DNA from: an uncultured Gammaproteobacteria bacterium
GTDB taxonomy: Bacteria; Patescibacteriota; Patescibacteriia; Magasanikbacterales; UBA922
NCBI GenBank assembly: GCA_964566225.1
Contig: CAZMHV010000004.1
Location: 248 to 64,247 of the forward strand
DNA: 64,000 nt
Direction of reading: 5' to 3'
Shown: one piece after another, positions 7,331-64,000 of the stretch
How positions within the stretch are numbered: position 1 is the stretch's first letter
How the letters are laid out: each line of letters starts with the position of its first letter
The notes under the pieces: generated by a model
Told to the model about the DNA's origin: nothing
The model's input: only the letters and a program-made list of their open reading frames with translations
The model's database searches: none
Position numbers and translations under genes: made by a program

Positions 7331-7340
7331 TTTCTTCATC

Positions 7341-7512
7341 GTGAACTGATGTGAATGAAATTTTGTCTAAATGAAAAATGGGGGTCTCACCATTACTCAA
7401 AAGTTGAAACTCGGTCGCCTGAGACGACCTCAAACATCAACTTTTGCCCTTCGGGACGTAATGGTTCGCTCCACATTTTTCATGCGACAAAATTTCATTC
7501 ACATCAGTTCAC
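7341..7512 (+). repeat. 27-bp perfect inverted repeat (7341-7367 / 7486-7512) flanking a 118-bp structured core, directly upstream of thrS
   Basis: GTGAACTGATGTGAATGAAATTTTGTC and its exact reverse complement. The core contains a GTCTCA/TGAGAC stem and a CCC-TTC-GGG hairpin. Confidence 0.6.
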
Positions 7513-7553
7513 TCATCAACTTTTAAATTTGTATTTTCTAACTGTATATTTGT

Positions 7554-14013: not shown

Positions 14014-14046
14014 AAAACCGTGAGCAAGGGCTTACGGTTTTTTTAT
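14014..14046. terminator. bidirectional intrinsic terminator
   Basis: ACCGTGAGC-AAGGG-GCTTACGGT with A7 upstream and T8 downstream. Overlaps the stop codon of the convergent giant gene. Confidence 0.6.
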
Positions 14047-48519: not shown

Positions 48520-48536
48520 AGATCAAATTTAATGTG

Positions 48537-49190: not shown

Positions 49191-49218
49191 ATACTTGGTA
49201 TTTCTTTTCCGTAGAATG

Positions 49219-49833: not shown

Positions 49834-49905
49834 ACATTCAAGAAAATTAGGATTTTAATCCCTCATAGTATACTCTGTTTAAAATCTCTTTGCAAGCTAA
49901 AAAGG

Positions 49906-49938
49906 AATAAAAAATCACCGGTATTTGACCGGTGATTT
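49906..49938 (-). terminator. intrinsic terminator after the 702-aa gene (minus strand)
   Basis: ATCACCGG-TATTTGA-CCGGTGAT with a T-run on the minus strand. Confidence 0.55.
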
Positions 49939-49956
49939 ATATATTTTTGTGGTGGA

Positions 49957-52065
49957 TTATCTTGTTTGACTCGCTCTGGTTACTTTTACATATTGGTAAC
50001 CACTCCAGGTAGATTTGCCTGTTTTGTCCCATACTTTGGCACCATAACTAACACTGGTTCCAGAGTATTTTGGATAACTGCCAGAAACTTCACAAGTAGT
50101 AGTACCAGTACAAGTTTTTACTACACGAGCGTTGACATACATGTCAATTTTTTTGATACCATTTTCGTCACTGGTATTTGCTTTGAAGGTAACGGTTTGA
50201 TTGGCTGGAATACTGCTGCTTGATGCTGAAACATTTAAGACTGGTGCATTATTGACTACTGGTCTTGCTGTGACAGAAATTGTTTTACTGTCAGAACTTC
50301 CACCCATACCTGTGCGGTTGTCCCAAGCAATGGTCCATACTTTGACAGATTGACCTGCATGTCCGGTAAATGGTCCAATAGTAAGTGAACAAGTTTGAAC
50401 ACTATTTGCAGTGGTAGTCAAGATACATGTTCGAGAAATAGTTTCGTTTGACCAACTTGGCAGAGCACGAACTTCCATGCCCCAGATTCCGTTTTGACTG
50501 GTAGCACGTCCGGTTACGACCATGGTTTTATCTTCTTGCACTGAGTAAGAATATACTTGTGTTTCTACCCATGGAGCAACAGAAGGATTATAGTTATCAA
50601 TAGGGTATGGATAGTAGCCACTGTTGTTTCCTACGGTAAAGGTAAAGAATTGTGAATACACGCGGTGTCCGTTGGTATCAAGTACGTCAGCCCAGACATC
50701 AAAAGATTGGCCAATGTAGCTGTTGAAGTTACTAATATCGAGAGTACATGTGGCGTTATGGGTATTGTATCCAAGGTCACAGGTGCGGTTAAATGTATAT
50801 TGAGAATACATGTTGCCATAACCATTCCAATATTGGCGTGGAACTACATTGACACTCATACGTGAGAGTCCTTCGTTGTCCCAACCATCAGCACGAATAC
50901 TGAGTCCTTGGTTTGGAGCAACAGTAGAAGGAATTTTGGCTGGATCAATATAAATACCCGGAAGTTGATCATTTGAAGAAACATTTCCGTTTGAAGTATT
51001 ACCAACACGCATGCTATAAATATTTGAAACAGCACGTTGACCGTTGGTATCAATTACTTCTGCCCAAACATAGAGATTTTGGTTGGCAAAGTTTTGAAAG
51101 TTGGCAATATCAAGAGTACAGGAAAGATTGTGGAGTACTGTGTAGCAGTGACGACTAAAAGGGAATTGGTAGGTATCGTTTGAAGTAAACCCGTCCCCAA
51201 TATAACTTTGTCGTGTCACATATACAGAAACACGGTTGACACCTTCGTTGTCCCAACCATCGGCACGAATGTGAACGGTTGAGTTCACGCCAACTTGTTC
51301 TGGAATTGTTCCACGATCAAGGTAAACACCAGGCATTTGATTGCCTGAGGTTTGTGGAAAGTTACCACGAACATGAACCGTGATACGACTTGAGTACCCA
51401 GTATTGCCTTCGGCATCAGTAGCACGGGCTTCATAGGTATAGGTTTTGCCAGCATCACTACTACTAAATGTTGGATAAAAATTTGTGGTACAGTCAAATG
51501 GGTTGTTGTTACAGGTATTGGTCATTTGGAGTGCCCAGTCATCAACGCGGTAAATACGAACATCACGAATAACAGAGTTATCAGTAGCGCGGGATTGGAT
51601 ATACATTCCAGAGTTTGCAGTTGCGTCAACATCATAACTACTTGCAGATAAGGTAACGGTAGGAACCTGGTAGTTGTTATATCCATTGTTGTACGCGGCT
51701 ACACCCTGAAGACTCATGACTTGTGAATACAAAAGAGTGCCGTTGACATCATAGCCAACTGCTTGCAAAAAAGTAGTCCCGTTTTTTACAGAAGAAAGGG
51801 AGTAATAACAGGTATTTTGGATGGAACAACTTGCGAGCACAGAGTTTCCTTCACGAATTTCAATTCGGTTGAGGGTGCGGTAGTTGAGTGGGTATACCTG
51901 GGCAGTAAAGGATAACTGGGTTCCTGTCTGAACGGTCCAGTTGTTATTTGAATTGGTGAGAGTAATATAGGGAGCAGCATCAGCCTGTGAGTTTTGGATG
52001 CCAGTGGCCAAGGCCAAAATGGCAATAACGGTCACTCCTACTGTTCGCAGAAGGAATTTTTTCAT
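49957..52065 (-). CDS. large secreted protein with at least 3 tandem ~100-aa beta-rich repeat domains
   Basis: Signal peptide. Repeated blocks IRADGWDNEG(V/L) and CTLDI(A/S)NF...VWA(E/D)V(I/L)DTNG. Rich in Asn/Thr/Tyr. Confidence 0.6.
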   Translation of the reverse strand: MKKFLLRTVGVTVIAILALATGIQNSQADAAPYITLTNSNNNWTVQTGTQLSFTAQVYPLNYRTLNRIEIREGNSVLASCSIQNTCYYSLSSVKNGTTFLQAVGYDVNGTLLYSQVMSLQGVAAYNNGYNNYQVPTVTLSASSYDVDATANSGMYIQSRATDNSVIRDVRIYRVDDWALQMTNTCNNNPFDCTTNFYPTFSSSDAGKTYTYEARATDAEGNTGYSSRITVHVRGNFPQTSGNQMPGVYLDRGTIPEQVGVNSTVHIRADGWDNEGVNRVSVYVTRQSYIGDGFTSNDTYQFPFSRHCYTVLHNLSCTLDIANFQNFANQNLYVWAEVIDTNGQRAVSNIYSMRVGNTSNGNVSSNDQLPGIYIDPAKIPSTVAPNQGLSIRADGWDNEGLSRMSVNVVPRQYWNGYGNMYSQYTFNRTCDLGYNTHNATCTLDISNFNSYIGQSFDVWADVLDTNGHRVYSQFFTFTVGNNSGYYPYPIDNYNPSVAPWVETQVYSYSVQEDKTMVVTGRATSQNGIWGMEVRALPSWSNETISRTCILTTTANSVQTCSLTIGPFTGHAGQSVKVWTIAWDNRTGMGGSSDSKTISVTARPVVNNAPVLNVSASSSSIPANQTVTFKANTSDENGIKKIDMYVNARVVKTCTGTTTCEVSGSYPKYSGTSVSYGAKVWDKTGKSTWSGYQYVKVTRASQTR

Positions 52066-52272
52066 ACAGAAAATAGTTAAATAATCAAATTTTGCTTAAT
52101 TTAGCTTAAAATTATAGTTTTTGAATCTACTCCTACTAATAGTAGCACATTTTGGCGTAAAAGTCAAGTCTATTTTGGTGCAAAAATAAGCGAAATTTTG
52201 CTACAATATAAGCTTTTTTTTGAAAAATGTGCACTGTCTTTGACGTGTGGACAAGCACCTTCTTTCACCCCT

Positions 52273-52300
52273 TGCCAAAATAAAAAAATTTTGGTATACT
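52273..52300 (+). promoter_or_regulatory. promoter TTGCCA-N16-TGGTATACT upstream of rpsA, with ~140-nt leader
   Basis: Same extended -10 (TGGTATACT) as the promoter at 57370. Confidence 0.45.
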
Positions 52301-52438
52301 CGGCTCACTATCTATTATTTATAACCTCCTTTTTGAGCAAAAACAAAAAGAAGAGGTTCACTTATTCGCTGTTTGGCGAAGGGTTAATGTATACGGTAGC
52401 TTAGGGTTTGTACTCTTTGACTCCGTTTTTTTGTACTT

Positions 52439-53599
52439 ATGTCACAAAAACAAAATTTTGCAGATCTTTTGAAGGATCATATCATGAAACTTCCAAAGAA
52501 TGGTGAAATCGTAAAAGGAACTGTTATCTCTGTAGATAATGGTGCTGTTCGCCTTGATATTGGCGGTATTATTACTGGTATTATTCGCGGCAAAGAACTC
52601 TTTGCTGAATCTGCTGAATACACCAACATTAAAGTTGGTGATGAAGTAGAAGCCACTGTTCTTGAAGATGAAAACGAACACGGTGAAATGGAACTTTCTT
52701 TCCGCATTGCTGGCAAAGAACGTGTGTGGGACCGCATGGTGAAATACATGAAAGAAGGAATTTCTCTCAAAGCCAAAGTGGTTCAAGCCAACAAAGGTGG
52801 TCTTATGATGGTGGTAGATGCCCTCAATGGTTTTATGCCAGTTTCTCAGCTCTCACCAGATAACTACCCACGTGTTCCAGGTGGCGACAAAAACCGAATT
52901 CTCGAACATTTGCAGCAACTGATTGGCAAGGACATGACCGTAAAAGTGATTGACGTTGACCAAAAAGAAGACAAGCTGATTGTATCTGAAAAAGAAGTAT
53001 GGGAAGACGAACAAAAAGCTGTTCTTGACTCATACAAGATTGGTGACGTAGTAGAAGGTGAAATTTCTGCTCTTACATCATTTGGTGCATTCTTGAAATT
53101 TGGACAAGGCCTTGAAGGACTTATTCACATTTCAGAAATCGTATGGCAACGCATTGATCACCCGAAAGATGTGCTCAAAGTGGGTGACCGTGTGAAAGCA
53201 CAAATTATTGACCTCAACAAATCAAAGATTTACTTGTCTGTAAAAAGACTCGTAGACGATCCATGGAAACATGTGAAAGAAAAATATAAAGTTGGAGAAA
53301 TTGTAGAAGGAACCGTGCACAAAGTAGAACCATTTGGTCTCATGGTAAAACTCGATGACCAAATTCATGGACTTGCGCACATTTCTGAACTTTCTGATGC
53401 TCCAATGGCTGACGTCAAAGACGTTCGCGAGAAATTCCCAATTGGTTCCAAACATCGCTTTGAAGTGATGAACGTAGAACCAGCGGAACACCGCCTTGGT
53501 CTCAAGGTAGAAGGTGTAAAAGGAAAAGTTCGCGCTCCAAAAAAAGCTGAAGAAGCTGCGCCTGCTGAAGCTGCTGCAGAAGAAAAAGCTGCGGAATAA
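52439..53599 (+). CDS. rpsA: 30S ribosomal protein S1 (short 4-domain form)
   Basis: Four S1/OB repeats (GxV.G.V......GAFV-type) and an Ala/Glu-rich C-tail. 386 aa. Confidence 0.8.
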   Translation: MSQKQNFADLLKDHIMKLPKNGEIVKGTVISVDNGAVRLDIGGIITGIIRGKELFAESAEYTNIKVGDEVEATVLEDENEHGEMELSFRIAGKERVWDRMVKYMKEGISLKAKVVQANKGGLMMVVDALNGFMPVSQLSPDNYPRVPGGDKNRILEHLQQLIGKDMTVKVIDVDQKEDKLIVSEKEVWEDEQKAVLDSYKIGDVVEGEISALTSFGAFLKFGQGLEGLIHISEIVWQRIDHPKDVLKVGDRVKAQIIDLNKSKIYLSVKRLVDDPWKHVKEKYKVGEIVEGTVHKVEPFGLMVKLDDQIHGLAHISELSDAPMADVKDVREKFPIGSKHRFEVMNVEPAEHRLGLKVEGVKGKVRAPKKAEEAAPAEAAAEEKAAE

Positions 53600-53614
53600 G
53601 ATTTTGAAAATAAA

Positions 53615-53647
53615 AGAAAATCCTCCAGAAATGGGGGATTTTTTTGA
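53615..53647 (+). terminator. intrinsic terminator after rpsA
   Basis: AAAATCCTCC-AGAAAT-GGGGGATTTT plus T7. Confidence 0.55.
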
Positions 53648-53683
53648 CCAAACCAAGAGAAAGAGGATATAATAAGAAAAACT

Positions 53684-56353
53684 TTGAACTTACTTTGTAT
53701 GCAATCTGCTCGTCGACATGAAATCTTACAAGAGAGGAGTCTTTTTGTTGATGAACCCGAAAATGATAGAAGAGAAAAAGAATGGAATCCAGAAAAAACA
53801 TTTTTGATTCGTCAATTAGTGGGTGTGCTTGATCGGGTTGATGCACAAACTGGACCAGTCGGAAGAAAAATTTTACATAATTTTTCGAGAGGTCAAATTA
53901 CTCTCGAAGAATTACAGACAGAATTAGAACAGGCTCCAGATTTTGGTGATTTTTGTGAGCATGTATATGATTACCTTGAAAGAGAGGGTGTGCTTATGCG
54001 TAAAGGGGAAGATTTCTTGGTAGATATGTATCGACTTACACACAGAAAGTTTGCAGGAATTGATAATAAAAAATATGAAACAAATAGAATTAAGAAGAGT
54101 AGAAAAAATAAATTTAGTGATGAATGGCTAGAACAAAACGCAAATTTGCATCATGGTAGATTGGTAGATTTACTCCAAAATGCCTTTTTACAACAAGAAG
54201 TATATGACCTGGATGCTTATGAAGATTGGGAAAAATCTGGTGCAAATCCACAAAAAAAACCTGAAAAAAAATTTCTTTTTTACAACCCACAATCAACTAC
54301 AGAAGCCTTTGATAGAGAAACGATTCAAGGGGCTCACTTTCATATTTTACCTTCTGAAATTTTTGGCAAAAAAGCAGATCATTATTCAGATAATTTAGCT
54401 GATGCAGCTTTTGATGAAGTCACCCTCGCCTGTCTTATTTTTCATCCAAACTATGGTGATGGCAAAAGGGAATCCGGTGTGCTCTTTGTGCGTGATCATG
54501 AGACAAGAGAGTATAGAAAAATTTCTAGAGATTGGTTTGCCAAATCAGGAATGAAATTTGGAGGAGAGTTAGAAGAAGGTAATATTCGAAAGTTTCTTGC
54601 TTCTCCAAAGTTTTTTTTGGCAGAAGGTGGCTACCCTCATCTCACTGAAAAGAATCTTTTAACCGCAACAGATTTTAAGACCATGGCAGGGAGTGAATAT
54701 GCCGAGAAGTATGGAACAAGTCGGGATATTACTCAGAAAAGGGGTATGGTGATGATTGATAAAGTCCACTATACGCTTGGGGTAGAATTTGCCCCCACTT
54801 CTGAAAAGAAATATCGTCTGTATCAACTGTCAGAAATGGTTGGGGGCATTGTAGAAGTTGATCCTGAAACTGGCGAGGATATTCAAATGACCCATGTCAT
54901 TGATATGGTAGGCAAAGATGATCCTCGTCGAGCTGAAAGAAAGGTCTTGACTGCTCCGCAGACCAGTATACATATTCGAGATTTCAATACTGAAGAATCC
55001 AAAATTCTTTTTGAAAAACATCTCACAGGAGGAGAAGCTTTTGAGTTTGCCACTCTGTTGCAGCTCAAACAAAAATTGGCAAAAAAGGCGAATGTTTCTT
55101 TTGAAAGTCTCTCGCCGGGAGAACAGGCTGGGCTTTTGCTCGTCTATCGTAACTGCACTGAAGAAGAACAAAAGAAAATGGATAGTTTTTTGGAAACAAA
55201 AAAAGAAGCGGGCTTTCCTGTGCTTCTGCTTGGTCAGTATGAAAAAAATTTATTTCCTTTGCTTGAAAAGATTGATCAAAAATATTCAGTGCATGAACAG
55301 GCTGCTATTTTTGAAAAAATTGCTGACGTGATTCGTTCACTTCAAACTGTGGAAGAAAAGGTGAAAGAATTTTTTGTTGAAGAGGGAAAGGAAATAAACA
55401 CCAATGATATTTCGCAAGAAATAATGAAACGGGCGGCCAAGCTTATTGAAAAATTTGCCACTGAACCAAAAGCAACCATAAAAATAAGTGAACTGGTCAT
55501 GCGGCTTAGTAGAATCAAAGAAGACATCATGCTTTTTGCTGTTATGTTTAAAGTCGCTGTTAAAGGAGACAAGCATATTGATGTAAAGGAAGTAAAGGGC
55601 ATGGATTTGCAGCATTTAAATTTTGAAGAACTCACTGACAGCGATAAAGAACAAATGGATGAAATTATTCAAAAAAATTGGAGTGATCGAGATCTGTATG
55701 GAGAAAAGAAAATAAAAGAATTTCATGAACTCATGAAAACAGACAAAAATTCACGATACTATGTTATGCGAAAAGATGGAAAGATTACTTCGTTTATTCG
55801 TTTTAAAGATAAAGAAAAAGTGTTTGGGGAACCCATACGCAAAGAGGGTGGATACTTTAATGTCGATCCAGACTTTCGTGGTTCGGGATTTGGTGAAGCT
55901 ATGATGCTCGCTTCTATTATTAAAGAAGGTGAAACAGGTATTATTGATGCAGTGGTCCATCCGGATTTTGATATTGGTATTAGGTATGTAGAAGAAACTG
56001 GTTGTGATATTGTTGGGTTTGGACCAGATAAAGTTGGGACCATGCGTTTTATTTTGGAGTGTGACGATCAAAAAAATAAAAAATCTTTTACTCGTAACCA
56101 AACGGAAGAAGAAGTAATGAATTTTATCGTGAATGATTCTGTTGAAAACCAAATACGGCAACAAAAAAAAGTAATTGGTATAAACTTCAACCCAAAATCT
56201 CGTGAAGATGGAGAAAAGATAAAACTTTTGGCAAGAGAGGGTTACCGAGGAACCAGATATTTTAATAATCCGAATGGAAAAGGGAGAATTATTGTTTTTG
56301 AGTTAGACGAACAAAAAAGGATGGATATTATACAATCGAAGATTGCGAGGTAG
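53684..56353 (+). CDS. 889-aa protein of unknown function with C-terminal GNAT-like acetyltransferase domain
   Basis: C-terminal RGSGFGEAMM (acetyl-CoA-binding Q/RxxGxG/A motif). The rest is unrecognised. Confidence 0.55.
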   Translation: MNLLCMQSARRHEILQERSLFVDEPENDRREKEWNPEKTFLIRQLVGVLDRVDAQTGPVGRKILHNFSRGQITLEELQTELEQAPDFGDFCEHVYDYLEREGVLMRKGEDFLVDMYRLTHRKFAGIDNKKYETNRIKKSRKNKFSDEWLEQNANLHHGRLVDLLQNAFLQQEVYDLDAYEDWEKSGANPQKKPEKKFLFYNPQSTTEAFDRETIQGAHFHILPSEIFGKKADHYSDNLADAAFDEVTLACLIFHPNYGDGKRESGVLFVRDHETREYRKISRDWFAKSGMKFGGELEEGNIRKFLASPKFFLAEGGYPHLTEKNLLTATDFKTMAGSEYAEKYGTSRDITQKRGMVMIDKVHYTLGVEFAPTSEKKYRLYQLSEMVGGIVEVDPETGEDIQMTHVIDMVGKDDPRRAERKVLTAPQTSIHIRDFNTEESKILFEKHLTGGEAFEFATLLQLKQKLAKKANVSFESLSPGEQAGLLLVYRNCTEEEQKKMDSFLETKKEAGFPVLLLGQYEKNLFPLLEKIDQKYSVHEQAAIFEKIADVIRSLQTVEEKVKEFFVEEGKEINTNDISQEIMKRAAKLIEKFATEPKATIKISELVMRLSRIKEDIMLFAVMFKVAVKGDKHIDVKEVKGMDLQHLNFEELTDSDKEQMDEIIQKNWSDRDLYGEKKIKEFHELMKTDKNSRYYVMRKDGKITSFIRFKDKEKVFGEPIRKEGGYFNVDPDFRGSGFGEAMMLASIIKEGETGIIDAVVHPDFDIGIRYVEETGCDIVGFGPDKVGTMRFILECDDQKNKKSFTRNQTEEEVMNFIVNDSVENQIRQQKKVIGINFNPKSREDGEKIKLLAREGYRGTRYFNNPNGKGRIIVFELDEQKRMDIIQSKIAR

Positions 56354-57134
56354 AATTTGGTTTTATATTTGAAGGGGCAATACCCGCATTCCAGATAAAT
56401 TCGAAAATATTTTTAAACATGCCAGCAATTTCTGGATTCATGATTTCAAAACCAATCTGTTCTTTTTCAGTGAGAGTAAAGAAAAGGATACTGTTGTCAA
56501 ATATTTGAATATTGGTTTTAAATGGTGAAAAATCTTTGGGCAAGAATTTGACGTCAGTTGATGTAATATCATTTTTAGCATATCGCTCCAATGCTTTTGG
56601 TGTTTCTACCACAAGCATTTTTTTTACAATATTTTTTTCTTTTCGTTTTTTGACATATTCCGTGTTCAAGTCTCCTGCAAATTCCAAAATAGGATCAATA
56701 GTCATAAAAGTATAAATACAGTTTTTGGCTTCGAGTGAGGTAAATAAGGCATCTTTGATACCGTCTAATCCTTCGTAGTATTTGACGCCTGGTTTGTTTA
56801 TACCGAGGTTGTATATCCCAGCCAGTGACTGCACCATATTTTTGAACTCACCCTCGAGAAGCGACACCTCACGTTTTTTTTCTTCCATGAGGGTAAAGAG
56901 CTTAGTTGGGTGATTTGGCTTGTAGTAGGCTACGCGGCCTTCTTTGCGGTATTCCACAAAGCCTTCTGCAAGGAGGGTGGGGAGGGCTTCGTACACTGTG
57001 GCGCGAGAGAGGGGAACCTTTTCAAGGAGCCTCGGCACGGTCATTTCTCCGTTTTCCACCAGGGTGAGGTAAATCTCGGCAGTGGTGGGTTCCATGCCGG
57101 TTTTGAGGAGGGTTTCGTGGAGGGTGGTGTTCAT
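56328..57134 (-). CDS. TrmB-family transcriptional regulator
   Basis: N-terminal winged HTH (TVPRLLEKVPLSRATVYEALPTLLAEGFVE) and TrmB-like C-domain. Operator-like palindromes lie upstream. Confidence 0.65.
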   Translation of the reverse strand: MNTTLHETLLKTGMEPTTAEIYLTLVENGEMTVPRLLEKVPLSRATVYEALPTLLAEGFVEYRKEGRVAYYKPNHPTKLFTLMEEKKREVSLLEGEFKNMVQSLAGIYNLGINKPGVKYYEGLDGIKDALFTSLEAKNCIYTFMTIDPILEFAGDLNTEYVKKRKEKNIVKKMLVVETPKALERYAKNDITSTDVKFLPKDFSPFKTNIQIFDNSILFFTLTEKEQIGFEIMNPEIAGMFKNIFEFIWNAGIAPSNIKPNSTSQSSIV

Positions 57135-57369
57135 AGGGGTAGGGGAGACTTCCTTTTGAGGAGGTTTTTTTGTTTTAATTTAGCCAAATTTTGAACTTTG
57201 ACCAATAAAGAGTTTAGCTGCCAAAAACACGTTTTTTCTCTTATTCTAGCATTATTATACCATATCTGCTTTAATCTGTCAAGTATTTACTAGACAGATT
57301 ATTTTGACTACTATTTATTATATTTTAGCCAAATTTGGTATAACATATAAACCAAAGTCTGGCATAGTA

Positions 57370-57398
57370 TTGACAAATTCGGCAAAACCTGGTATACT
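57370..57398 (+). promoter_or_regulatory. near-consensus sigma-70 promoter TTGACA-N17-(TGG)TATACT
   Basis: Read directly: TTGACAAATTCGGCAAAACCTGGTATACT. Divergent from the TrmB-like gene. Confidence 0.55.
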
Positions 57399-57404
57399 AG
57401 CTTG

Positions 57405-57545
57405 TTACGATGAAAGACCGAGAAGAAGAACGAACCGAGTAACACCTTACAACTGAACCAAAGTAGCCCCAAAGGAAGGAGAGAGCCTACGGGGAGCAAG
57501 CCAAGCAACAGCCTGGTAAGCAACTACTCTATATATAGATATAGA
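57405..57545 (+). ncRNA. candidate ~170-nt small RNA or riboswitch-like leader (unclassified)
   Basis: Bounded by the strong promoter at 57370 and the terminator at 57546-57575. No ORF apart from a 10-codon leaderless frame. Internal repeats ACCGAG x2 and GTTAC/GTAAC pairing. Confidence 0.3.
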
Positions 57546-57575
57546 AACCACTCTCTCCACAGGGTGGTTTTTTTC
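57546..57575 (+). terminator. intrinsic terminator
   Basis: AACCAC-TCTCTCCACAGG-GTGGTT followed by T7. Confidence 0.55.
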
Positions 57576-58187
57576 GCAAAGACGAATCCGCCTTGGGCGG
57601 ACATCACTTAGGGCGCTGGAGCTCTTGATCAAAAGTACTCACTTTCAATGCTTGTGTGAGGAAGGATCAAGACCCAAGCGGCCTACATGATTCCCACTGC
57701 TCAAATAATACTTGGTTTGCTCTCTGGAGAGATGAGCGAAGCAGGGTGAGAACAGAGGTTGAGTCCAAAAGCCATTACAATGAAATAATTTCTTTGACCC
57801 ATATGAAAAATAGGAGAGAGAATCCTATCGGTGAAAGAAATTTTCAATTCTGAACCCTCTGTGAGACTGAAACATGTCGTAACAGAGAATTTGCTCGAAG
57901 GTTACACTTTGAGAACCTACGGAGGTCGATAGATGCCCTTGACGAAAGTCGAGCAGCAACTCCCTCGCGGCAGGTCTACTACTCGCCTCAGAACGAGAAG
58001 TAGTACCGAGTGCGTCCCGCCTTCATGGATCTGTCAAAAGATTGATGGAGGCAGGGATACTCTGTATTACAGAGAGATCTTTAGAAAAAAACAAGGCGAT
58101 GAGGAAAGGCATTTTGATTATCACGAGAGTGGTGAGAAGAATGCCTTTCCCCGCGCCTGGCAAGCGTAGTCAACAAATGGAGATTGT

Positions 58188-58823
58188 GTGGATACCACCA
58201 AGCCGGATTTCGGCACACTCAACACCCTCAGCGCGTTCGACCACAACACCGTCGGCACCAAGGTGACCGACCCCCGCAAGTTCTACAAGTTTCTGACGGT
58301 CGCGGTTGCCACCCACGACACCTCGAAGGACAAGGCGACTGGCCAGCACTTCCTGATCCTGCCGAAGGAAGCCTTCAGCACCGTCACGGCGGGAGTCGGA
58401 CGTCGGAGCAAGGAACCCAGGGACTACGTGCCGCGCCTTCACCGGGACACCGTCGAGCTCTACCTCAAGCGTGATTTCGCGGCCGCCGTGGAGAGTCTGT
58501 CCGTCGTGGTGTACACGCGGCAGGCCTACCTGGCGGATCCGGACATCAATCCGGACAAGGTGGCCGAGCGCTTCCCCGGCAACGAGGAGAAGCTCGCGGA
58601 CGCCATCAAAGAGACGAAGCGGATTGAAGGATCATCCTTCACCCACATCGTCGTCGCCGTTCTGGCATCCGCAGGCCCACGTGCTCCGTTGTCGCCCATT
58701 CGGTTGGTGAACAACCTCGCCGGTGGCAACAACGAGGTCAACGAGTGGAGCAAGGAGGACATCGTCATGAAGGCGCAGCTGACCAAGGCCTACTACGATG
58801 AGTGGTGCACGGTCGCGGACTGA
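58188..58823 (+). CDS. hypothetical protein A of the GC-rich module (211 aa)
   Basis: GTG start 5 nt after GGAG. Third codon positions almost all G/C. No family recognised. Confidence 0.6.
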   Translation: MDTTKPDFGTLNTLSAFDHNTVGTKVTDPRKFYKFLTVAVATHDTSKDKATGQHFLILPKEAFSTVTAGVGRRSKEPRDYVPRLHRDTVELYLKRDFAAAVESLSVVVYTRQAYLADPDINPDKVAERFPGNEEKLADAIKETKRIEGSSFTHIVVAVLASAGPRAPLSPIRLVNNLAGGNNEVNEWSKEDIVMKAQLTKAYYDEWCTVAD

Positions 58824-59557
58824 TCTCGGCGACGCGGTGCCAAACAAAGAAACCCGGTAGCATCCCACTCACAGACCGACAAGGTCTGGGACAAGCTACC
58901 ACTCAACGGTTTCACTCAGCACAAAATCCAGTGCTGAAATAAATGTTATGAGTCACCTGCATGTTCCAAAAGAACAAAGTGGTGAGCCAAGAGGAAGCAG
59001 TATCCTCCACGGCGAGAAGCCAAACGCACCGGTCGGCGAGAGAGAAGCACTCACTCGCCAACCCTGCAGAAATTTCAATTCGTTGAAGTTTGTGAAGGGG
59101 AGAAAATAGTAACAACTGAAGTTTTTCTTCAAAAGTGGAGAAAAGAACAGTCGCTACTACAACAAGAAAGTCCAGAATACAAAAGTAACTTTGGTCTCAC
59201 AAGAGCAAAGTGAAAAATTGGATGAAGGATGTTACAGCAGCATAATGCATGTGGTGTAGAGAGTGAAGATCATTACAACTGAATATTGCCAAAGTGAAGA
59301 AGAATGTTATTTTCTTTGGCAAGCGCAGGTTTACCAAAACGTGCGTATTGAAAATTGCTTGTCGCTCTGCTGTCTTTACTCAAGGGCAGTGAATGCGATA
59401 AGCAACTCCGGGAAGATAATGTCTTCGACCCGGAGTCCCGACAATCCTCCTCCTGTGAACCGGCGGCACGAGTGCCAATGGAGCAGGCGTCCAGAGGTGG
59501 ACGAAAAATGGAGGCTCCCCCGAGGGTTCGTGGGGAGAGAAGTGGAGAATTTCGACA

Positions 59558-60400
59558 ATGAAGAACGGGCTCAACCCCCAGCGTGGTTCTTTTTCCTGCC
59601 ACCCCGCCATCAGCGCGACGGTCAACTTCCCCCTCACCCTGAACATGGCCAACGCCTTCGTGCCCCAGGTCACCGAGTTCTTCCAGAACTGCGGGGACCT
59701 GCGCGGCTTCAGCAGCTACGGCCTCCCGGGCCAGGGCGTCGCGGCCATCCTGACCCTCCCGGTGCTGGAGATGGCGTGCGGGTTCCCCGTCACGCCGATC
59801 TACGACATCGGGCAGAAGAAGGTGGTCGGCGGGCTCAACCTGGGCGAGTTCCGTCACAGCGTGGTCCGCCCCCGCCGCGCCGAGCTGACCCGCACCGAGG
59901 CCTACGCCGGATACACCGTCATCGACGGCGCCGGTCGGGGTCTGACCCCGCTCCAGCGCGAGGAGCTCGAGGGCATCCTCAGCTCCACGGACATCCGGGT
60001 CGTCGCCGCACCCACGGGCCAGATGGACTTCGGCGACCCCACGAAGGGGATCGTCGAGACCCTCCTGGCCACGGGGCTGAGCTTCGACGACTGGACCTCC
60101 GGCCGCGTCGTGTACCTGCCCCCGGGAATGGGGCTGGCCGCGGTCGTCCAGGCAACGGCGATCTACGGTCTCTCCGAGGCCTGGCCCCGTACCCTGCGCC
60201 TCAACAAGCGCGAGGCCGATGGCCAGTTCCACCTCGACGAGATCGTCGACCCCCAGGCCCTCCGGCAGTTCGGGGTCAGCCTGGCGGCGGCCTGGCGCGA
60301 CGCGGAGCCGACGGTCACGCTCAGCGGCGCGGTCTCTGAGGACTTCCGCCGGCTCCTCACCGAGCTGGCCGAGGCCCACGGCGTCACGATCCGCGGCTGA
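59558..60400 (+). CDS. hypothetical protein B of the GC-rich module (280 aa; alternative start at 59645)
   Basis: Very high GC3 in this frame only, GGAG 10 nt upstream. The overlapping 358-aa and 384-aa ORFs are Arg/Pro/Gly-rich shadow frames. Confidence 0.6.
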   Translation: MKNGLNPQRGSFSCHPAISATVNFPLTLNMANAFVPQVTEFFQNCGDLRGFSSYGLPGQGVAAILTLPVLEMACGFPVTPIYDIGQKKVVGGLNLGEFRHSVVRPRRAELTRTEAYAGYTVIDGAGRGLTPLQREELEGILSSTDIRVVAAPTGQMDFGDPTKGIVETLLATGLSFDDWTSGRVVYLPPGMGLAAVVQATAIYGLSEAWPRTLRLNKREADGQFHLDEIVDPQALRQFGVSLAAAWRDAEPTVTLSGAVSEDFRRLLTELAEAHGVTIRG

Positions 60401-60657
60401 CGCGACGTTCCGCGTCGCTCTCCTCACGAGTAGCGTGTGAGTGAGAGGTCAACATCCTACCAAACCGCTACATTCTCGCCCAGTTCTGGGCAAATCCAAC
60501 AACAATGCACGAGGTCAGTGGGAAGCAAGCACAACGCTTCCCACCCTCAAATAAGTTCTCCAAACAAGTTTGGATGGAGGGCTTTGAGAGGAAAAGTCGT
60601 TCCGTAAAAACACCGGAACGCCTGGGCGCTCACCCAGTCCCGACAAACGGAGGAAAT

Positions 60658-61206
60658 GTGAGCAAGCGAATCGGTGATCGGGTTTTTTCCCTTCAGTTCA
60701 TGATCATCTTCGGTATTCTAATCGGAATCCTGTCCGCGTTGTTCGACTGGTGGAGCTGGATCGAGCCCATCACTGGGGTCGCGACCCTCGCCCTCTCCGC
60801 CGCCGCATGGTGGCAGACGAGACGGGCGAAGGAAGCGTACTACCAGGTGTCCGACAACCACGACGGCAACTGGATCGTCGCGCTGGAAGTCGGCCGCCCC
60901 ATCAGCGAGGCGGTCAAGGATCGTTTCGGCAGTCTGGATGTTCTCGTCCGTGTTCAGGATGTGATTGGAACCTCGGTTCTTCTCACGGAAGATCACTACG
61001 AGAAGGTGGCGCGTGCGGTTTACTCCGCGTGTGCTCTCTGCCAGAACAAGCCGATCGACTTGATCGTTTCAGGCCCGAACGGGCTGGTTTTCATCGTTGG
61101 ACAGATGCTGGGCATGGATCGCTTCCGCGTCCAGGTCTGGCAGTACTACAACGGCGAATACCAGCTAATCCCGCGACCGACGCGGGACTGGCTCGAGCAC
61201 CGCTGA
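60658..61206 (+). CDS. 2-TM membrane protein with ~115-aa C-terminal alpha/beta domain (candidate membrane effector/sensor)
   Basis: GTG start 4 nt after GGAGG. Basic N-terminus, TM1 FMIIFGILIGILSALF, TM2 ITGVATLALSAAAWW, then a domain with DLIVSGPNGLVFIVGQMLG and RVQVWQYYNGEYQLIP. Confidence 0.55.
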   Translation: MSKRIGDRVFSLQFMIIFGILIGILSALFDWWSWIEPITGVATLALSAAAWWQTRRAKEAYYQVSDNHDGNWIVALEVGRPISEAVKDRFGSLDVLVRVQDVIGTSVLLTEDHYEKVARAVYSACALCQNKPIDLIVSGPNGLVFIVGQMLGMDRFRVQVWQYYNGEYQLIPRPTRDWLEHR

Positions 61207-61484
61207 CCCTCTCAAATGTCCCGACTCCACACATGTCGGGAAAGTCCAGAGATCCTTCTTTGGGCGACACTCGGTAGTTCGCGATCAGCACTCACGATCG
61301 CAGCTCCCACGAGATTTTTATTTGTAAAAGTTTCATGGGAGAAAATAAAAACAATGGGTGGCTGGCAGCGCCCAAAATTTTTTTCTTTGTATCTGCCAGA
61401 AATTTTTTGGAAACCATTGCCATAAAGCCCCACGAGCAAATGCTCGACGGAAGTGTGGGGAACAAACGGCAGTGGTGGAGGAAA

Positions 61485-61853
61485 ATGACGAAATCGATTT
61501 TCGTTGTTGACCACCCCTTTCAGCAGGTCAAGGTGATGACGGTCAACGAGGACGGAGAAATCTGTTCCTCGACCGGTGATCACCTCTATGACCTGTCGGA
61601 AGACGGGGACGAGGTCAGCACGTCCATCGACTACGCGAGGGCTTTTCCTCACGTGGCGTTTTACGAGCGCAAGCTCGATGATGCCAGTGGGGACAAGCCG
61701 TTCTTCAGTCTGAGCCAAGAGCGAGCGCAAAGCTTTGTCGATTTCAAGCAGGCGTGCCTGCGAGAGATCAACGACGCTGGCCTCGATGACACTGCTGCCG
61801 CAATCAAGCGGCAGAACGTCATCGACGCCCTGCGCACGCGCTTCGGCTTCTGA
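61485..61853 (+). CDS. hypothetical acidic protein D (122 aa)
   Basis: ATG 4 nt after GGAGG. The upstream part of track ORF 61335..61853 is AT-rich and probably non-coding. Confidence 0.45.
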   Translation: MTKSIFVVDHPFQQVKVMTVNEDGEICSSTGDHLYDLSEDGDEVSTSIDYARAFPHVAFYERKLDDASGDKPFFSLSQERAQSFVDFKQACLREINDAGLDDTAAAIKRQNVIDALRTRFGF

Positions 61854-62301
61854 AGAGCGCGTAGTCGTATCCTCCCCTAGGTCTTGAGCAGATGAGGGGG
61901 AGTGAAAAAGAAAGCGGACCGGCAACGCGCCGACTGAGTGGGGAGAAAGATCTCACTTTGAGCTGCCAGCAACCGTGCAGCAAGACCGCAAGCTTAGGTT
62001 GGTAACCTCAACAACCAAAACTCGGGATTTGGCGATGTGCACACGTCGCCACCCAACACAAGCCCAGCAAAAATTTTTTTGAGGAGAGCACGATGAAACT
62101 CTCTCCTCGGAGTGCATGAAGATTTTCTTTGAAAATTTTTAGCTCCTTGAACGGATAATTGCTGTGCTGCTGTTGGGTGAAACGATTTTTATTTGAGAGA
62201 GAAATAAAAATTGAACCTAAATTCGTGTTATACGAAGTGTTCTTTGTAATTCATCTCGTGCTCTCTCCACCCAGAGAGTTTTTTTGTTTCAGACAAAAAA
62301 A

Positions 62302-62352
62302 CTTCTGCCGCTTTGAAAACATTTTTAGGAGTGTTTGATGAAGCGGCAGAAG
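62302..62352 (+). promoter_or_regulatory. 10-bp perfect inverted repeat CTTCTGCCGC...GCGGCAGAAG sequestering the RBS and start of a 13-codon upstream ORF (62338-62379) that ends 12 nt before gene E
   Basis: AGGAGTG-N4-ATG lies inside the loop. The mini-ORF MKRQKFLNTNNFL stops just before GGAGG-N6-GTG of the 62392 gene. Confidence 0.35.
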
Positions 62353-62391
62353 TTTCTGAACACCAACAACTTTCTATGACGGAGGTGAAAC

Positions 62392-62904
62392 GTGGGAAAT
62401 CAGCCCACCAAAATCCTCGGCCGCTTGCGAAGCGGCGAGGTCGTGCAGGATCGGGCGCAGTCCCACCTGCACGCGGGAGTCATCGAGCTGCTCCCGGAAG
62501 TGCTCAGCTCGACCGATTCGCGCGGCAAGGCGAATTTCGTCCGTGAGTTCCGGTTCAATCGCGTGGTTGGTATCAACAACCGCGTGAAGACCGGAGCGAA
62601 CGACGAGATCGTCTTCGCCCAGCGCGTGGGGCGCACCGGGCTGTCGCGGTTCGTGAAGAATCGCCAGCCCGAGCCGACCCGGTATGTGACCGTCGTCCTC
62701 AACCGCCGCGCGAGTGGCGTGTATGAGGTGTTGACGGCCTACATCGGTTCGGCCGCCCCGCGCGAGCCATGGGATCCTCGCGCGGATCGAGAAGTCTCTG
62801 CACGGTTCTGGGCCTCCGAAGCGCTGCTTTGGGGCTCTGAGCCGGTCGTCGATGGAACTGAAACAACGAACATGCCGGATTCGTTCCGGCTCGAAGGAGT
62901 GTGA
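62392..62904 (+). CDS. hypothetical protein E (170 aa), immediately upstream of and nearly abutting the AAA+ ATPase gene
   Basis: GTG start after GGAGG, high GC3, stop 3 nt before the ATPase ATG. No family recognised. Confidence 0.55.
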   Translation: MGNQPTKILGRLRSGEVVQDRAQSHLHAGVIELLPEVLSSTDSRGKANFVREFRFNRVVGINNRVKTGANDEIVFAQRVGRTGLSRFVKNRQPEPTRYVTVVLNRRASGVYEVLTAYIGSAAPREPWDPRADREVSARFWASEALLWGSEPVVDGTETTNMPDSFRLEGV

Positions 62905-62907
62905 GAC

Positions 62908-64000
62908 ATGGCCGACCAGGCCACCCTGAAGCGGGCCATGGCACTCAAGCCCAAGATTGAGGCCAACACCAACGTCGTCCTGCGCGAGTTCATCAAGCGG
63001 GACGACATCGTGCGGGCAGTCTGGCTCGCGCTCCTCTCCGACTCCGCCGCGTTCTTCCTGGGCCCGCCGGGCGTCGCCAAGACCGCCACGGTGCAGCGCC
63101 TCGCGCGCGAGATCACCGGGTGCGTGTTCTTCGAGGCCCTGATGCCGGCCATCGTTTCGGCGGATCAGCTCTTCGTGGAGTCCACCTCCATCGAGGAGCA
63201 CCCGACGGACGACGGTGGCAAGGCCATCGCGGTCAAGAACAAGCTGGGGCGGGCCACCAAGGCGCACGTCTTCTTCGCCGACGAGGTGTGGAAGACCGAG
63301 CCGATGGTGCTCCAGCCCCTGCTCGACCTGGCCCGGGCCGACGGAGTCCGTCACGATGGGTCGTTCCATGCGACCCCGATCATGGCCTTCCTCGCCGCGT
63401 CGAACGAGCTGCCCGAAGAGGGGAGCAAGCTCGGCGCGATGTGGAGCCGGATGATCATTCGCGTGGACGTTCGGGGTCTCGACCGCTCCGGCCGCAAGGC
63501 CATGGTCGCCTCGCGTCTCCGTCAGGAACGCAAGGAGCCCGTGCCCCAGGCCACGACGAACGACCGCCTCAGCGTGGAGGACTTGAAACTCCTCCAGCAG
63601 GCGCGGCCGCACGTGGAGCTCCCCGACGAGATCATCGAGATCGTTCTCGACCTGATCGAGGAGTTGACGAAGCAGGACGAGGCTGGATTCGGTTGGCTCC
63701 GCGAGGACGACCGCCGGTTCGGATTCATCTGCGACGTCCTGCAGTCGGCTGCCCTGCTGGCCGGTCGCTCGGTCGTCACCAAGGCCGACCTCGCCGCGCT
63801 GGAGTGGATGATGTGGAATGAGCCGAGCCAGATCCCCGCGATCAAGGCCGTACTCGCCCCCCTCATTCGGACGCCGGCCGGCGAGGCACAGGAGATGGTC
63901 GACGCCCTCATGGCGCCGGATGGCGTAGTGGATGGCTTCCTGCAGAACAAGCACGAGAAGTCCACCGACGCCCTCCGGCAATGCCGGGAAACCATGGCGG
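62908..64000 (+). CDS. RavA/MoxR-family AAA+ ATPase, 3'-truncated by window end
   Basis: Own translation: ...FFLGPPGVAKTATVQRLAREI (MoxR-type Walker A GxPGxAK[ST], cf. RavA LLGPPGIAKS) and Walker B HVFFADEVWK. Open to the window end, hence absent from the ORF track. Confidence 0.75.
   Translation, partial: MADQATLKRAMALKPKIEANTNVVLREFIKRDDIVRAVWLALLSDSAAFFLGPPGVAKTATVQRLAREITGCVFFEALMPAIVSADQLFVESTSIEEHPTDDGGKAIAVKNKLGRATKAHVFFADEVWKTEPMVLQPLLDLARADGVRHDGSFHATPIMAFLAASNELPEEGSKLGAMWSRMIIRVDVRGLDRSGRKAMVASRLRQERKEPVPQATTNDRLSVEDLKLLQQARPHVELPDEIIEIVLDLIEELTKQDEAGFGWLREDDRRFGFICDVLQSAALLAGRSVVTKADLAALEWMMWNEPSQIPAIKAVLAPLIRTPAGEAQEMVDALMAPDGVVDGFLQNKHEKSTDALRQCRETMA

What the first reader, a model, noticed from the sequence alone, without database searches (positions are those of the whole stretch)
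57576..58190. Abrupt compositional breakpoint: AT-rich host chromosome switches to GC-rich, GC3-saturated coding DNA
Upstream genes use A/T-rich codons and have AT-rich intergenic DNA. From 58188 onward the ORFs have nearly every third codon position G or C, and opposite-strand shadow ORFs become Arg/Pro/Gly-rich, which is typical of >65% GC genomes. A sharp switch like this within one contig indicates very recent horizontal acquisition from a high-GC donor, a chimeric assembly or window, or an engineered insertion; an actinobacterial host of an epibiont is one conceivable donor (speculation). The 600 bp between the host sRNA terminator and the first GC-rich gene is mid-GC, hairpin-rich and non-coding.
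Basis: seen in the sequence. Interest (0 to 1): 0.8.

Follow-up and report, generated by a model that had tools for sequence, protein, structure and literature searches.

The report
GC-rich defence operon in Patescibacteria chromosome
The sharp jump from AT-rich to GC-rich DNA is real and marks where a horizontally exchanged, GC-rich anti-invader operon (SAVED/Csx15-type genes plus a MoxR-VWA module) starts behind a long, structured leader RNA in an ultra-small (Patescibacteria) bacterium; the same split recurs at related loci in other genomes, so it is not an assembly error.

Summary
Bases 1-57,000 are about 40% GC, with host gene GC3 of 0.27-0.44. From 58,188 on, the + strand genes are 57-70% GC, with GC3 of 0.74-0.94. 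The 612 nt in between are 47% GC, match no Rfam family and fold far better than shuffles (z -8.6).

The GC-rich block is foreign-type DNA in a real Patescibacteria chromosome (gyrA, gyrB, thrS, gatB). A close relative has an empty site there. An independent contig from the same sample joins a GC-rich gene to the host gene expected on the far side. Chimeric assembly and engineering are therefore very unlikely. No actinobacterial donor signal was found.

The same layout recurs in at least three other assemblies, two of them Patescibacteria:
- a large GNAT- or methyltransferase-fused protein;
- a convergent TrmB regulator;
- a 0.6-1.2 kb structured leader;
- a GC-rich operon of variable Csx3, Csx15-like and TM-SAVED genes, then bpMoxR, VWA and a ~775-aa protein.

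The regulatory half tracks host GC. The operon stays at 57-71% GC and has a different phylogeny, which points to repeated operon exchange.

The leader holds a ~70-nt hairpin (57,995-58,075) with covariation across four loci. Spacers between cassettes are conserved above synonymous sites.

Verdict: a compositionally atypical horizontally acquired defence island, a known kind of feature, carrying a new system variant and a new RNA motif.

The parts
53684..56353 (+). Large 889-aa protein with a C-terminal GNAT domain. It has host-like composition (GC 0.36, GC3 0.27) and is the first gene absent from the syntenic relative. Counterparts at related loci carry GNAT (L015) or a SAM methyltransferase (L014, L007).
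56328..57134 (-). TrmB-family winged-helix regulator. Its 3' end overlaps the GNAT gene. The same convergent pair precedes the GC-rich operon in L007, L014 and L015. Its 5' third is GC-richer (0.53) than the rest (0.34).
57254..57398 (.). Divergent promoter region. TTGACA-17-TATAAT on the - strand (57282->57254) serves TrmB. TTGACA-17-TATACT on the + strand (57370-57398) points into the leader. TAGCCAAATTT repeats are possible operators.
57404..57574 (+). It ends in an 8-bp stem plus U7. It is only modestly structured (z -2.3) and may be a separate sRNA or an attenuator.
57577..58187 (+). The finding proper: a 611-nt leader without Rfam match, 47% GC, with exceptionally stable predicted structure.
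57995..58075 (+). Conserved long hairpin RNA motif. The 5' arm is GUAGUAYCGAGUGCG and the 3' arm is ACUCnnUAYUAC; the distal stem covaries. It is shared with the leaders of L007, L015 and L014.
58188..58823 (+). Gene A, 211 aa, GC3 0.85. It belongs to a ~190-aa family with over 400 database hits and unknown function. The AF2 model is confident, with no close solved fold.
58824..59557 (+). Spacer 2, 734 nt, 47% GC, z -12.8. It holds a second, weaker copy of the hairpin motif (59101-59165). It also holds a block (59149-59405, 83% identical overall; its 200-nt core 59206-59405 is 88%) that in L008 precedes different cargo genes.
59558..60400 (+). Gene B, 280 aa, GC 0.70, GC3 0.94, with a Csx15-like C-terminal region. 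Its homologue (47%) occupies the same position in L012.
60658..61206 (+). Gene C, 182 aa from GTG 60658: a predicted N-terminal membrane segment plus a SAVED domain. Homologues lie in L007 (53%) and L012 (32%). L015 has a SAVED protein too.
61304..61341 (.). Palindromic module Y (CTCCCAYGA...TCAWGGGAG). It is repeated upstream of other genes (L008 1977-2015 and the L011 far-end leader) and lies at the left edge of the gene-D indel.
61485..61853 (+). Gene D, 122 aa, no family match. It is part of a ~712-bp segment (61342-62053) missing from the related contig L008.
61969..62032 (+). Repeat module X. It occurs again (95% over 59 nt, with an identical 30-mer) at the start of the leader of the far-end GC-rich gene on L011. 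It coincides with breaks in the Logan contigs.
62054..62391 (+). Conserved structured leader of E-MoxR-VWA. It is 94% identical to L008, against 81-83% at neighbouring third codon positions. All 9 substituted paired positions keep their pairing. It contains a terminator-like hairpin (62260-62285) and a 15-bp perfect-arm hairpin (62299-62355).
62392..62904 (+). Gene E, 170 aa, matching only phrog_23674 (unknown function).
62908..64000 (+). bpMoxR-type AAA+ ATPase, 401 aa in full, running off the window. A 562-aa VWA protein follows (L005), and in relatives a ~775-aa protein H.

Best explanation
What it is. The breakpoint is a real biological boundary. On its low-coordinate side is a Patescibacteria (probably Magasanikbacteria-related) chromosome. 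It includes a host-composition regulatory half: a large GNAT-fused protein, a convergent TrmB-family regulator and a pair of strong divergent sigma-70 promoters. On its high-coordinate side is a co-oriented GC-rich conflict or defence operon:
- A, function unknown;
- B, Csx15-like;
- C, membrane-anchored SAVED;
- D and E, function unknown;
- a bpMoxR ATPase and a VWA protein, and in relatives a ~775-aa partner H.

The finding's 612 nt are the structured 5' leader of that operon. The whole block sits in a variable hotspot between the S1-domain gene and an ATP-grasp gene.

What is shown:
- the composition split;
- the empty site in a relative;
- host DNA linked to GC-rich DNA at the far end;
- recurrence of the same architecture and the same GC split in L007, L014 and L015;
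- different phylogenies for the regulatory half and the operon;
- a covarying hairpin in the leader;
- spacers conserved above synonymous sites.

What is inferred:
- The operon is exchanged horizontally as a unit, probably by recombination within or near the leader. Exchange outpaces amelioration to host composition, so the operon keeps a GC-rich signature while the regulatory half drifts to host GC.
- TrmB represses the + strand promoter. Transcription then passes or stops at the terminator-like hairpins, and the conserved long hairpin is a protein-binding or RNase III-type processing site that sets operon output.
- MoxR-VWA-H senses an invader, and the SAVED membrane protein is a nucleotide-activated effector tuned by the Csx15- and Csx3-like proteins.
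For: - Composition.
- Host identity: gyrA, gyrB, thrS and gatB. ATP-grasp relatives are named Magasanikbacteria or Patescibacteria.
- Empty site: L010 is syntenic from gyrB to S1 and then continues directly with ATP-grasp, PfkB and Pyr_redox.
- Far junction: the ATP-grasp orthologue P0138 lies on the same 164,371-bp contig. On Logan contig L011 it is followed within 300 bp by a 228-aa gene of GC 0.60 and GC3 0.77.
- Near side: Logan L002 runs from host DNA to 57,852. All Logan pieces are 100% identical to the window.
- Gene content.
- Recurrent architecture and GC split.
- Incongruent histories: for TrmB the closest pair is L014-L007 (51%). For MoxR and VWA it is L015-L007 (73% and 78%), with L014-L007 at only 54% and 52%.
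- Structured leaders in all loci: z from -4.5 to -8.9, with host coding controls near 0.
- Hairpin covariation: 93.8% of cells paired against 33-47% in slid controls, 10 compensatory pairs, 0 of 500 shuffles as good. A fourth locus was found by the model at E 4e-5 with a compensatory basal stem. The + strand scores 75-86 bits against 14-21 bits for the - strand.
- Spacer constraint.
Against: - No read-level data were available. No independent contig that I could retrieve covers 57,853-57,927 or 58,977-59,348. The X repeat at 61,969 gives the assembly graph two exits, so cassette order inside the island is not independently proven.
- No integrase, tRNA or flanking direct repeat was found in the window, so the insertion mechanism is unknown.
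- The island's far boundary and total length were not seen.
- No GC-rich reservoir organism was identified. In every locus recovered the operon is richer in GC than its flanks. This fits active maintenance of GC-richness as well as it fits frequent transfer.
- The regulatory and defence roles are inferred from domain families only. H, A, D and E have no assignable function.
- No nucleotide cyclase or Cas10 that would feed a SAVED sensor was detected.
- Covariation rests on four to five sequences.
Confidence: 0.72

Rival explanations
1. The operon is a long-term, largely vertically kept resident of these loci. Its GC-richness is actively maintained. Possible causes are selection (mRNA stability or structure, throttled translation of toxic genes through rare codons, or escape from an AT-preferring nuclease) and GC-biased gene conversion at a recombination hotspot.
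For: - The split recurs in hosts of about 40%, 43-48% and 50% GC, with the operon always at 57-71% GC.
- The two closest copies differ at 19% of third positions, yet both keep GC3 of 0.74-0.91.
- No GC-rich donor genome was found.
- MoxR identity between the window and L015 (61%) is close to their GyrA identity (65.5%).
Against: - Trees for the regulatory half and the operon disagree.
- The locus is absent from a relative with 90% identical GyrA.
- Cassette content differs between 91% identical copies.
- The spacers are not GC-rich, as unselective gene conversion would make them.
Confidence: 0.18
2. Recent direct transfer from a high-GC actinobacterial host of the epibiont.
For: - Island GC3 is very high.
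- Patescibacteria are often epibionts of Actinomycetota.
- MoxR-vWA sensing clusters exist in oral Actinobacteria (PMC13622651).
Against: - Among 45 MoxR relatives at E<1e-40, the named ones are Patescibacteria and Colwellbacteria. The best genome hit is labelled Gammaproteobacteria and has the same TrmB architecture.
- The nearest non-self relatives are only 66-68% identical.
- Spacers of 45-54% GC are unlike actinobacterial intergenic DNA.
Confidence: 0.05
3. Chimeric assembly: two organisms joined at a shared repeat in the MAG contig.
For: - Logan short-read contigs break inside the spacers (57,852/57,928, 58,976/59,349 and 61,969-61,984).
- The X 30-mer is repeated.
Against: - Host DNA is linked to GC-rich DNA on L011.
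- Host-like TrmB lies next to a GC-rich operon in four other independent assemblies.
- Both sides are found in the same two sequencing runs at 100% identity.
Confidence: 0.03
4. Integron-like cassette array or prophage remnant.
For: - The small cassettes are co-oriented.
- Hairpin or palindrome modules (Y, X) lie at an indel boundary.
- E, MoxR and VWA match PHROG families.
- L014 has a tyrosine recombinase 4 kb upstream, and L008 starts next to a tRNA-Ser gene.
Against: - No integrase is in the window.
- No repeated attC-type site separates every cassette, and no GTTRRRY cores were seen.
- Spacers are 258-734 bp and mutually unrelated.
- No phage structural genes were found, and there are no matches in viral contigs or plasmids.
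Confidence: 0.02

Closest known systems
Compositionally atypical genomic (defence) islands acquired by horizontal transfer, as reported for Patescibacteria in PMC12455944
   Same: GC, codon usage and tetranucleotide usage are foreign. The block is absent from a close relative at a syntenic hotspot. Its cargo is of defence type.
   Different: - The window has no integrase, tRNA or direct-repeat borders.
- Only the operon is atypical, while its dedicated regulator genes have host composition.
- The same split recurs at distantly related copies.
- 31% of the island is structured non-coding spacer, in a genome that is otherwise at least 91% coding.
MoxR-vWA ternary conflict systems (Kaur, Burroughs, Iyer and Aravind 2020, eLife; PMC7159879)
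   Same: A bpMoxR-family AAA+ ATPase (PF20030) is immediately followed by a VWA protein and then a large third protein.
   Different: - The third protein (~775 aa) shows no beta-propeller or any other Pfam domain.
- The module is coupled to Csx3, Csx15-like and TM-SAVED genes and to a TrmB regulator plus a GNAT- or MTase-fused giant protein.
- That paper excluded CPR organisms from its statistics.
Type III CRISPR / CBASS cyclic-oligonucleotide signalling accessory genes (SAVED, Csx15, Csx3)
   Same: There is a SAVED domain on a predicted membrane-anchored protein, a Csx15 match above the NCBIfam cut-off, and Csx3 in the sister loci L008 and L014.
   Different: No cas10, CD-NTase, cas genes or CRISPR array lie in 64 kb. 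The source of any nucleotide signal is unknown.
Long structured cis-regulatory leaders (attenuators, RNase III-processed leaders)
   Same: A strong promoter is followed by terminator-like hairpins and a conserved, covarying, ~27-bp stem ahead of the first gene.
   Different: No Rfam family matches. The leaders are very long (0.6-1.2 kb). Further long structured spacers separate individual genes within the operon.

Membership tests
Horizontally acquired genomic island | Base composition, codon usage and oligonucleotide signature deviate from the host | tested here: met
   GC is 0.57-0.70 against 0.40 and GC3 is 0.74-0.94 against 0.27-0.44. Tetranucleotide correlation with the host is 0.41 against 0.84-0.95.
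Horizontally acquired genomic island | Absent from the syntenic site of a close relative | tested here: met
   L010 (GyrA 90%) goes from S1 directly to ATP-grasp. Another relative, P0139, has different genes there.
Horizontally acquired genomic island | Mobility hallmarks at the borders (tRNA gene, integrase, direct repeats) | tested here: not met
   The window has no tRNA and no integrase homologue. The far border was not seen. L008 abuts a tRNA-Ser gene and L014 has an integrase 4 kb upstream.
MoxR-vWA ternary conflict system | bpMoxR-type AAA+ ATPase | tested here: met
   PF20030 scores 78 bits against a cut-off of 27, with AAA_5 and AAA_lid_8 also matched.
MoxR-vWA ternary conflict system | Adjacent VWA-domain protein | tested here: met
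   L005 2164-3852 matches VWA_2 at 28.5 bits against a cut-off of 27. It starts 18 bp after the MoxR stop.
MoxR-vWA ternary conflict system | Third sensor component (beta-propeller or equivalent) with effector domains | tested here: inconclusive
   A ~775-aa protein follows VWA in L007, L008, L012, L014 and L015, but it has no Pfam domain. It was not seen for the window's own genome beyond 65,985.
Cyclic-oligonucleotide signalling (type III CRISPR accessory / CBASS) | SAVED or CARF sensor fused to an effector | tested here: met
   Gene C matches PF18145 at 29.2 bits (cut-off 26.2) and PADLOC SAVED4--SAVED at 64 bits and SAVED_TM at 50 bits.
Cyclic-oligonucleotide signalling (type III CRISPR accessory / CBASS) | Signal-producing enzyme (Cas10 or CD-NTase) in the locus | tested here: not met
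   There are no such Pfam, PADLOC or NCBIfam hits among A-F, VWA, or the tested cargo genes of L008, L014 and L015. There is no CRISPR-like array.
Integron cassette array | IntI integrase plus attC sites between all cassettes | tested here: not met
   No tyrosine recombinase is in the window. Spacers are unrelated to each other apart from modules X and Y.
Any Rfam RNA family (for leader and spacers) | Covariance-model match | tested here: not met
   There are no hits at gathering score in the window or L010. Over 57,100-64,000 at E<=1 only chance miRNA hits appeared.
Conserved structured RNA (generic criterion) | Compensatory base changes supporting one structure on one strand | tested here: met
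   For the hairpin at 57,995-58,075 there are 10 compensatory pairs in 3 sequences and 15 in 5. None of 500 shuffles did as well, and slid controls pair at 33-50%. There is strand asymmetry in bit score. The sample is small.

The most novel reading that the evidence does not exclude
The GC-richness of the operon is not a leftover of recent import but a maintained, functional property. Two forms of this are possible:
- The operon's own transcripts or DNA are spared by an AT/AU-preferring effector.
- Translation of toxic components is throttled by codons that are rare in the host.

In this reading the unusually long, conserved, hairpin-rich leader and inter-cassette spacers are a new class of RNA control elements for a Patescibacteria-associated immune system. 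That system joins cyclic-oligonucleotide-type sensors to a MoxR-VWA module.
Probability: 0.15. Interest if true: 0.8.

Novelty: new variant of a known kind. Interest (0 to 1): 0.5.

Why it matters
Taken alone, a GC-rich island in an AT-rich genome is textbook horizontal transfer, and the main practical value here is showing that it is not a misassembly.

Three things go further:
- The compositional boundary runs through a single functional locus. The regulator half has host composition and the effector operon is GC-rich, and this recurs at distantly related copies. That gives a natural system for asking whether defence operons are swapped faster than they ameliorate, or whether composition itself is selected.
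- Patescibacteria are thought to be poor in classical immunity. This locus type combines SAVED, Csx15 and Csx3 genes with a MoxR-VWA sensing module and no CRISPR or cyclase, which hints at an uncharacterised signalling route.
- The leader carries a covarying hairpin absent from Rfam, and the inter-gene spacers evolve about three times more slowly than neighbouring synonymous sites. These are candidate new regulatory RNAs.

Tried and rejected
- Rfam at gathering and at E<=1, and ARAGORN, on the junction: nothing.
- Repeats between the spacers and the rest of the window: none.
- BLAST of the island against plasmids: no match.
- Two conserved spacer motifs against viral contigs: no match.
- The 15-mer of the hairpin against viral contigs: 37 hits, none of which matches the covariance model, so they are chance.
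- The source contig itself could not be fetched, and the P0126 look-up failed. The genome contigs and metagenome-contig scans each returned one relative.
- SRA run numbers in the literature: none.
- Protein A:
  - No Pfam, PADLOC, NCBIfam or PHROG match.
  - The PDB sequence profile search gave nothing.
  - Foldseek gave nothing (best E 0.17).
- Integron reading rejected: no integrase and no attC.
- CRISPR reading rejected: no array.
- I first placed the start of gene C at 60659 and of gene D at 61487. Both were out of frame and were corrected to 60658 and 61485.
- The terminator-like hairpin at 57,547-57,574 is visible in the sequence and in the fold, but the consensus scan did not list it.
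Full report
**1. The observation**

The window is about 40% GC for its first 57 kb. One-kb windows range from 0.36 to 0.46, and 150-bp windows have mean 0.40 and sd 0.051. After 58 kb it rises to 55-67%.

Codon-phase analysis shows one phase reaching 0.75-0.99 GC from 58.1 kb to the end of the window, always in a + strand frame. The long Arg/Pro/Gly-rich minus-strand ORFs are shadows of these frames.

The real genes are:
- A, 58188-58823;
- B, 59558-60400;
- C, 60658-61206;
- D, 61485-61853;
- E, 62392-62904;
- F, 62908 to beyond 64000.

Their GC3 is 0.74-0.94, against 0.27-0.44 for host genes.

Tetranucleotide usage deviation correlates with the host at 0.84-0.95 for host chunks. For island coding DNA the value is 0.41.

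The 612 nt named in the finding are 47% GC and hit no Rfam family. They fold at -226.7 kcal/mol, against -167 +/- 7 for shuffles. I did not test the short ORFs there (65 and 78 aa) for homologues.

One refinement applies. The GC-rich genes are separated by five long spacers of 258-734 bp and 45-54% GC. Spacers make up 31% of the island, whereas the host part of the window is at least 91% coding with intergenic GC of 0.36.

**2. Is it an artefact?**

The AT-rich part is a real chromosome carrying gyrA, gyrB, thrS, gatB and a type II/IV secretion (T2SSE-family) ATPase gene. Homologues of a neighbouring housekeeping gene are named Magasanikbacteria or Patescibacteria.

Exact-sequence look-ups place proteins from both sides (GyrA, TrmB, A, E) on one NCBI contig of 164,371 bp.

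Independent Logan assemblies of two runs reproduce the sequence at 100% identity in pieces:
- 47,926-57,852, which crosses the finding's start;
- 57,928-58,976;
- 59,349-61,984;
- 61,969-65,985.

A relative with 90% identical GyrA (L010) is syntenic from gyrB to the S1-domain gene. It then continues directly with ATP-grasp, PfkB and Pyr_redox genes, so its site is empty.

The orthologue of that ATP-grasp gene lies on the same 164-kb contig. On an 18-kb Logan contig from the same sample it is followed within 300 bp by a 228-aa gene of GC 0.60 and GC3 0.77. In window orientation that gene is on the + strand.

Host DNA is thus joined to GC-rich DNA in an independent assembly on the far side. On the near side the join is nearly but not fully covered.

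The Logan breaks have a simple cause at one point. A 30-mer at 61,969-61,998 is identical to the end of L011, so it is a repeat (module X).

Chimeric assembly, a chimeric window and engineering are therefore very unlikely. The gaps at 57,853-57,927 and 58,977-59,348 could not be bridged with the tools.

**3. What the GC-rich genes are**

| Gene | Result | Calls |
|---|---|---|
| B | Csx15-like region; NCBIfam 38 bits, cut-off 35 | 16 |
| C | predicted N-terminal membrane segment plus SAVED domain | 8, 15 |
| F | bpMoxR-type AAA+ ATPase | 17 |
| next gene after F | VWA protein | 21, 56 |
| A, D, E | no informative match | see below |

A belongs to a ~190-aa family with 414 hits at E<=0.001, including Patescibacteria members. 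Its model is confident (pLDDT 96) but has no close solved fold. E matches only a PHROG family of unknown function.

There is no tRNA, integrase or CRISPR-like array in the window.

**4. Related loci change the picture**

Only 45 proteins in the 5.8-billion-sequence database resemble the MoxR protein at E<1e-40. The named ones are Patescibacteria and Colwellbacteria.

Four other loci were read:
- L007, a MAG labelled Gammaproteobacteria;
- L012, a JGI contig;
- L014, a 217-kb Patescibacteria contig;
- L015, a 301-kb contig carrying gyrA.

L007, L014 and L015 share one architecture with the window:
- a large + strand protein ending in a GNAT or a SAM-methyltransferase domain;
- a TrmB regulator on the opposite strand, overlapping its 3' end;
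- 0.6-1.2 kb of non-coding DNA;
- a + strand operon of variable small genes (Csx3, Csx15-like, TM-SAVED, a DHHA1-like protein), then MoxR, VWA and a ~775-aa protein H;
- after which composition returns to that of the flanks.

L012 holds the B-like, C-like, MoxR, VWA and H genes, but no TrmB was recognised there.

In every case the operon is GC-rich and the regulatory half is not:

| Locus | Operon GC3 | Comparison GC3 |
|---|---|---|
| L014 | 0.71-0.95 | flanks 0.37-0.49 |
| L015 | 0.70-0.93 | GNAT and TrmB 0.44-0.46 |
| L007, L012 | 0.72-0.92 | flanks 0.47-0.49 |

The big protein and TrmB track the GC of each host. The operon genes stay at 57-71% GC whatever the host.

The histories of the two halves also disagree. 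TrmB is closest between L014 and L007 (51%). MoxR and VWA are closest between L015 and L007 (73% and 78%), and only 54% and 52% between L014 and L007.

The simplest reading is that the operon is exchanged as a unit, independently of its regulatory half. 'Very recent transfer from one high-GC donor' is too narrow, and no such donor was found.

The alternative is that GC-richness is actively maintained. I cannot exclude it and give it about 0.18.

**5. The leader and spacers**

Two strong divergent promoters lie at 57,254-57,398. The + strand promoter would start a transcript near 57,405. That transcript first meets an 8-bp stem plus U7 ending at 57,574 and then the 611-nt structured stretch.

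Predicted folding is far more stable than for shuffles in all five loci:
- leaders: z -8.1, -8.9, -6.0, -4.5 and -4.8;
- the window's internal spacers: -12.8, -5.6, -6.6 and -6.5;
- host coding controls: near 0.

Inside the finding, 57,995-58,075 forms a long hairpin.
- Its 15-nt 5' arm (GTAGTAYCGAGTGCG) and its 3' arm are shared exactly with L007 and L015. The inner stem differs but stays paired.
- 93.8% of cells are paired, against 33-47% when partners are slid.
- There are 10 compensatory pairs, and none of 500 shuffles does as well.
- A covariance model then found the element in the L014 leader (E 4e-5, with a compensatory basal stem). It also found a weaker second copy at 59,101-59,165.
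- An invariant U-G pair and 75-86 bits on the + strand against 14-21 on the - strand point to RNA.

The sample of four to five sequences is small.

A 91% identical copy of the island from another sample (L008) gives a further test. Spacer 5 (62,054-62,391) is 94% identical, while third codon positions of E, MoxR and VWA are 81-83% identical. All nine substituted paired positions keep their pairing.

L008 also shows modular exchange:
- A 257-nt block of spacer 2 precedes different genes there (Csx3-like and Csx15-like).
- Gene D with its surroundings (61,342-62,053) is missing.
- A 38-nt palindrome (Y, 61,304-61,341) and a ~60-nt module (X) recur in other leaders.

**6. How it most likely works**

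Shown:
- a foreign-composition operon behind a promoter and leader region next to a TrmB gene;
- conserved RNA structure in the leader;
- cassette-level variation between close copies.

Inferred from family knowledge:
- TrmB-type repression of the + strand promoter;
- conditional read-through of terminator-like hairpins;
- protein binding to, or RNase III-type processing of, the long hairpin;
- invader sensing by MoxR-VWA-H (PMC7159879);
- a nucleotide-activated SAVED membrane effector, modulated by the Csx15- and Csx3-like proteins.

The signal-making enzyme is missing from what I could see.

**7. Comparison and novelty**

Genomic islands, and enrichment of defence genes among transferred genes, are already described in Patescibacteria (PMC12455944). 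MoxR-vWA ternary systems are also described (PMC7159879).

What I did not find in the papers I read is:
- this combination of genes;
- the split composition within one locus, recurring across hosts;
- the leader hairpin;
- the long constrained spacers.

I file it as a new variant of a known kind, of moderate interest.

Noticed in passing
L010 5294-6254 and 16958-18108: The relative's two unusually long intergenic regions each hold a small GC-rich reverse-strand ORF. At least one begins like a lipoprotein signal peptide (MWRLIFIGLFITSTTGC...). Both share the motif CAGAAGAAGAAGAAGAAGTCAA. GC-rich mini-genes in AT-rich DNA may therefore be a recurring feature of this lineage.
   Followed up: partly
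window 7069-7553: The 485-nt intergenic region upstream of the threonyl-tRNA synthetase gene folds much better than shuffles (z -7.6) but has no Rfam match. It could be a divergent T-box or another leader.
   Followed up: no
window 56835-57134: The first 100 codons of the TrmB gene (the winged-helix part) are 53% GC with GC3 0.64. The rest is 34% GC with GC3 0.32, so the gene may be mosaic.
   Followed up: partly
L008 24-99: In the related contig from another sample, a tRNA-Ser(UGA) gene lies about 280 bp before the spacer-2-like element. That copy of the island may sit at a tRNA site, unlike the window's copy.
   Followed up: partly
window 61969-61998 and L011 12427-12456: An identical 30-mer (module X) occurs in spacer 5 and at the start of the leader of the far-end GC-rich gene. 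It explains the short-read contig breaks. It could also mediate deletion of E-MoxR-VWA in part of the population.
   Followed up: partly
[not shown]
   Followed up: partly
window 14032-18465: A 1,477-aa ORF on the minus strand has no Pfam match at E<=1e-5.
   Followed up: no
window 57169-57336: The motif TAGCCAAATTT occurs twice and a degenerate form once around the divergent promoters. A similar AGCCAAATTT occurs in an L010 intergenic region. It is a possible operator or promoter element of this lineage.
   Followed up: no
contig of P0139 (no DNA available): In a relative whose ATP-grasp protein is 84% identical, the gene is followed by two large genes (595 aa and 438+ aa) without Pfam hits, rather than by S1 or this island. 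The site looks like a variable hotspot.
   Followed up: partly
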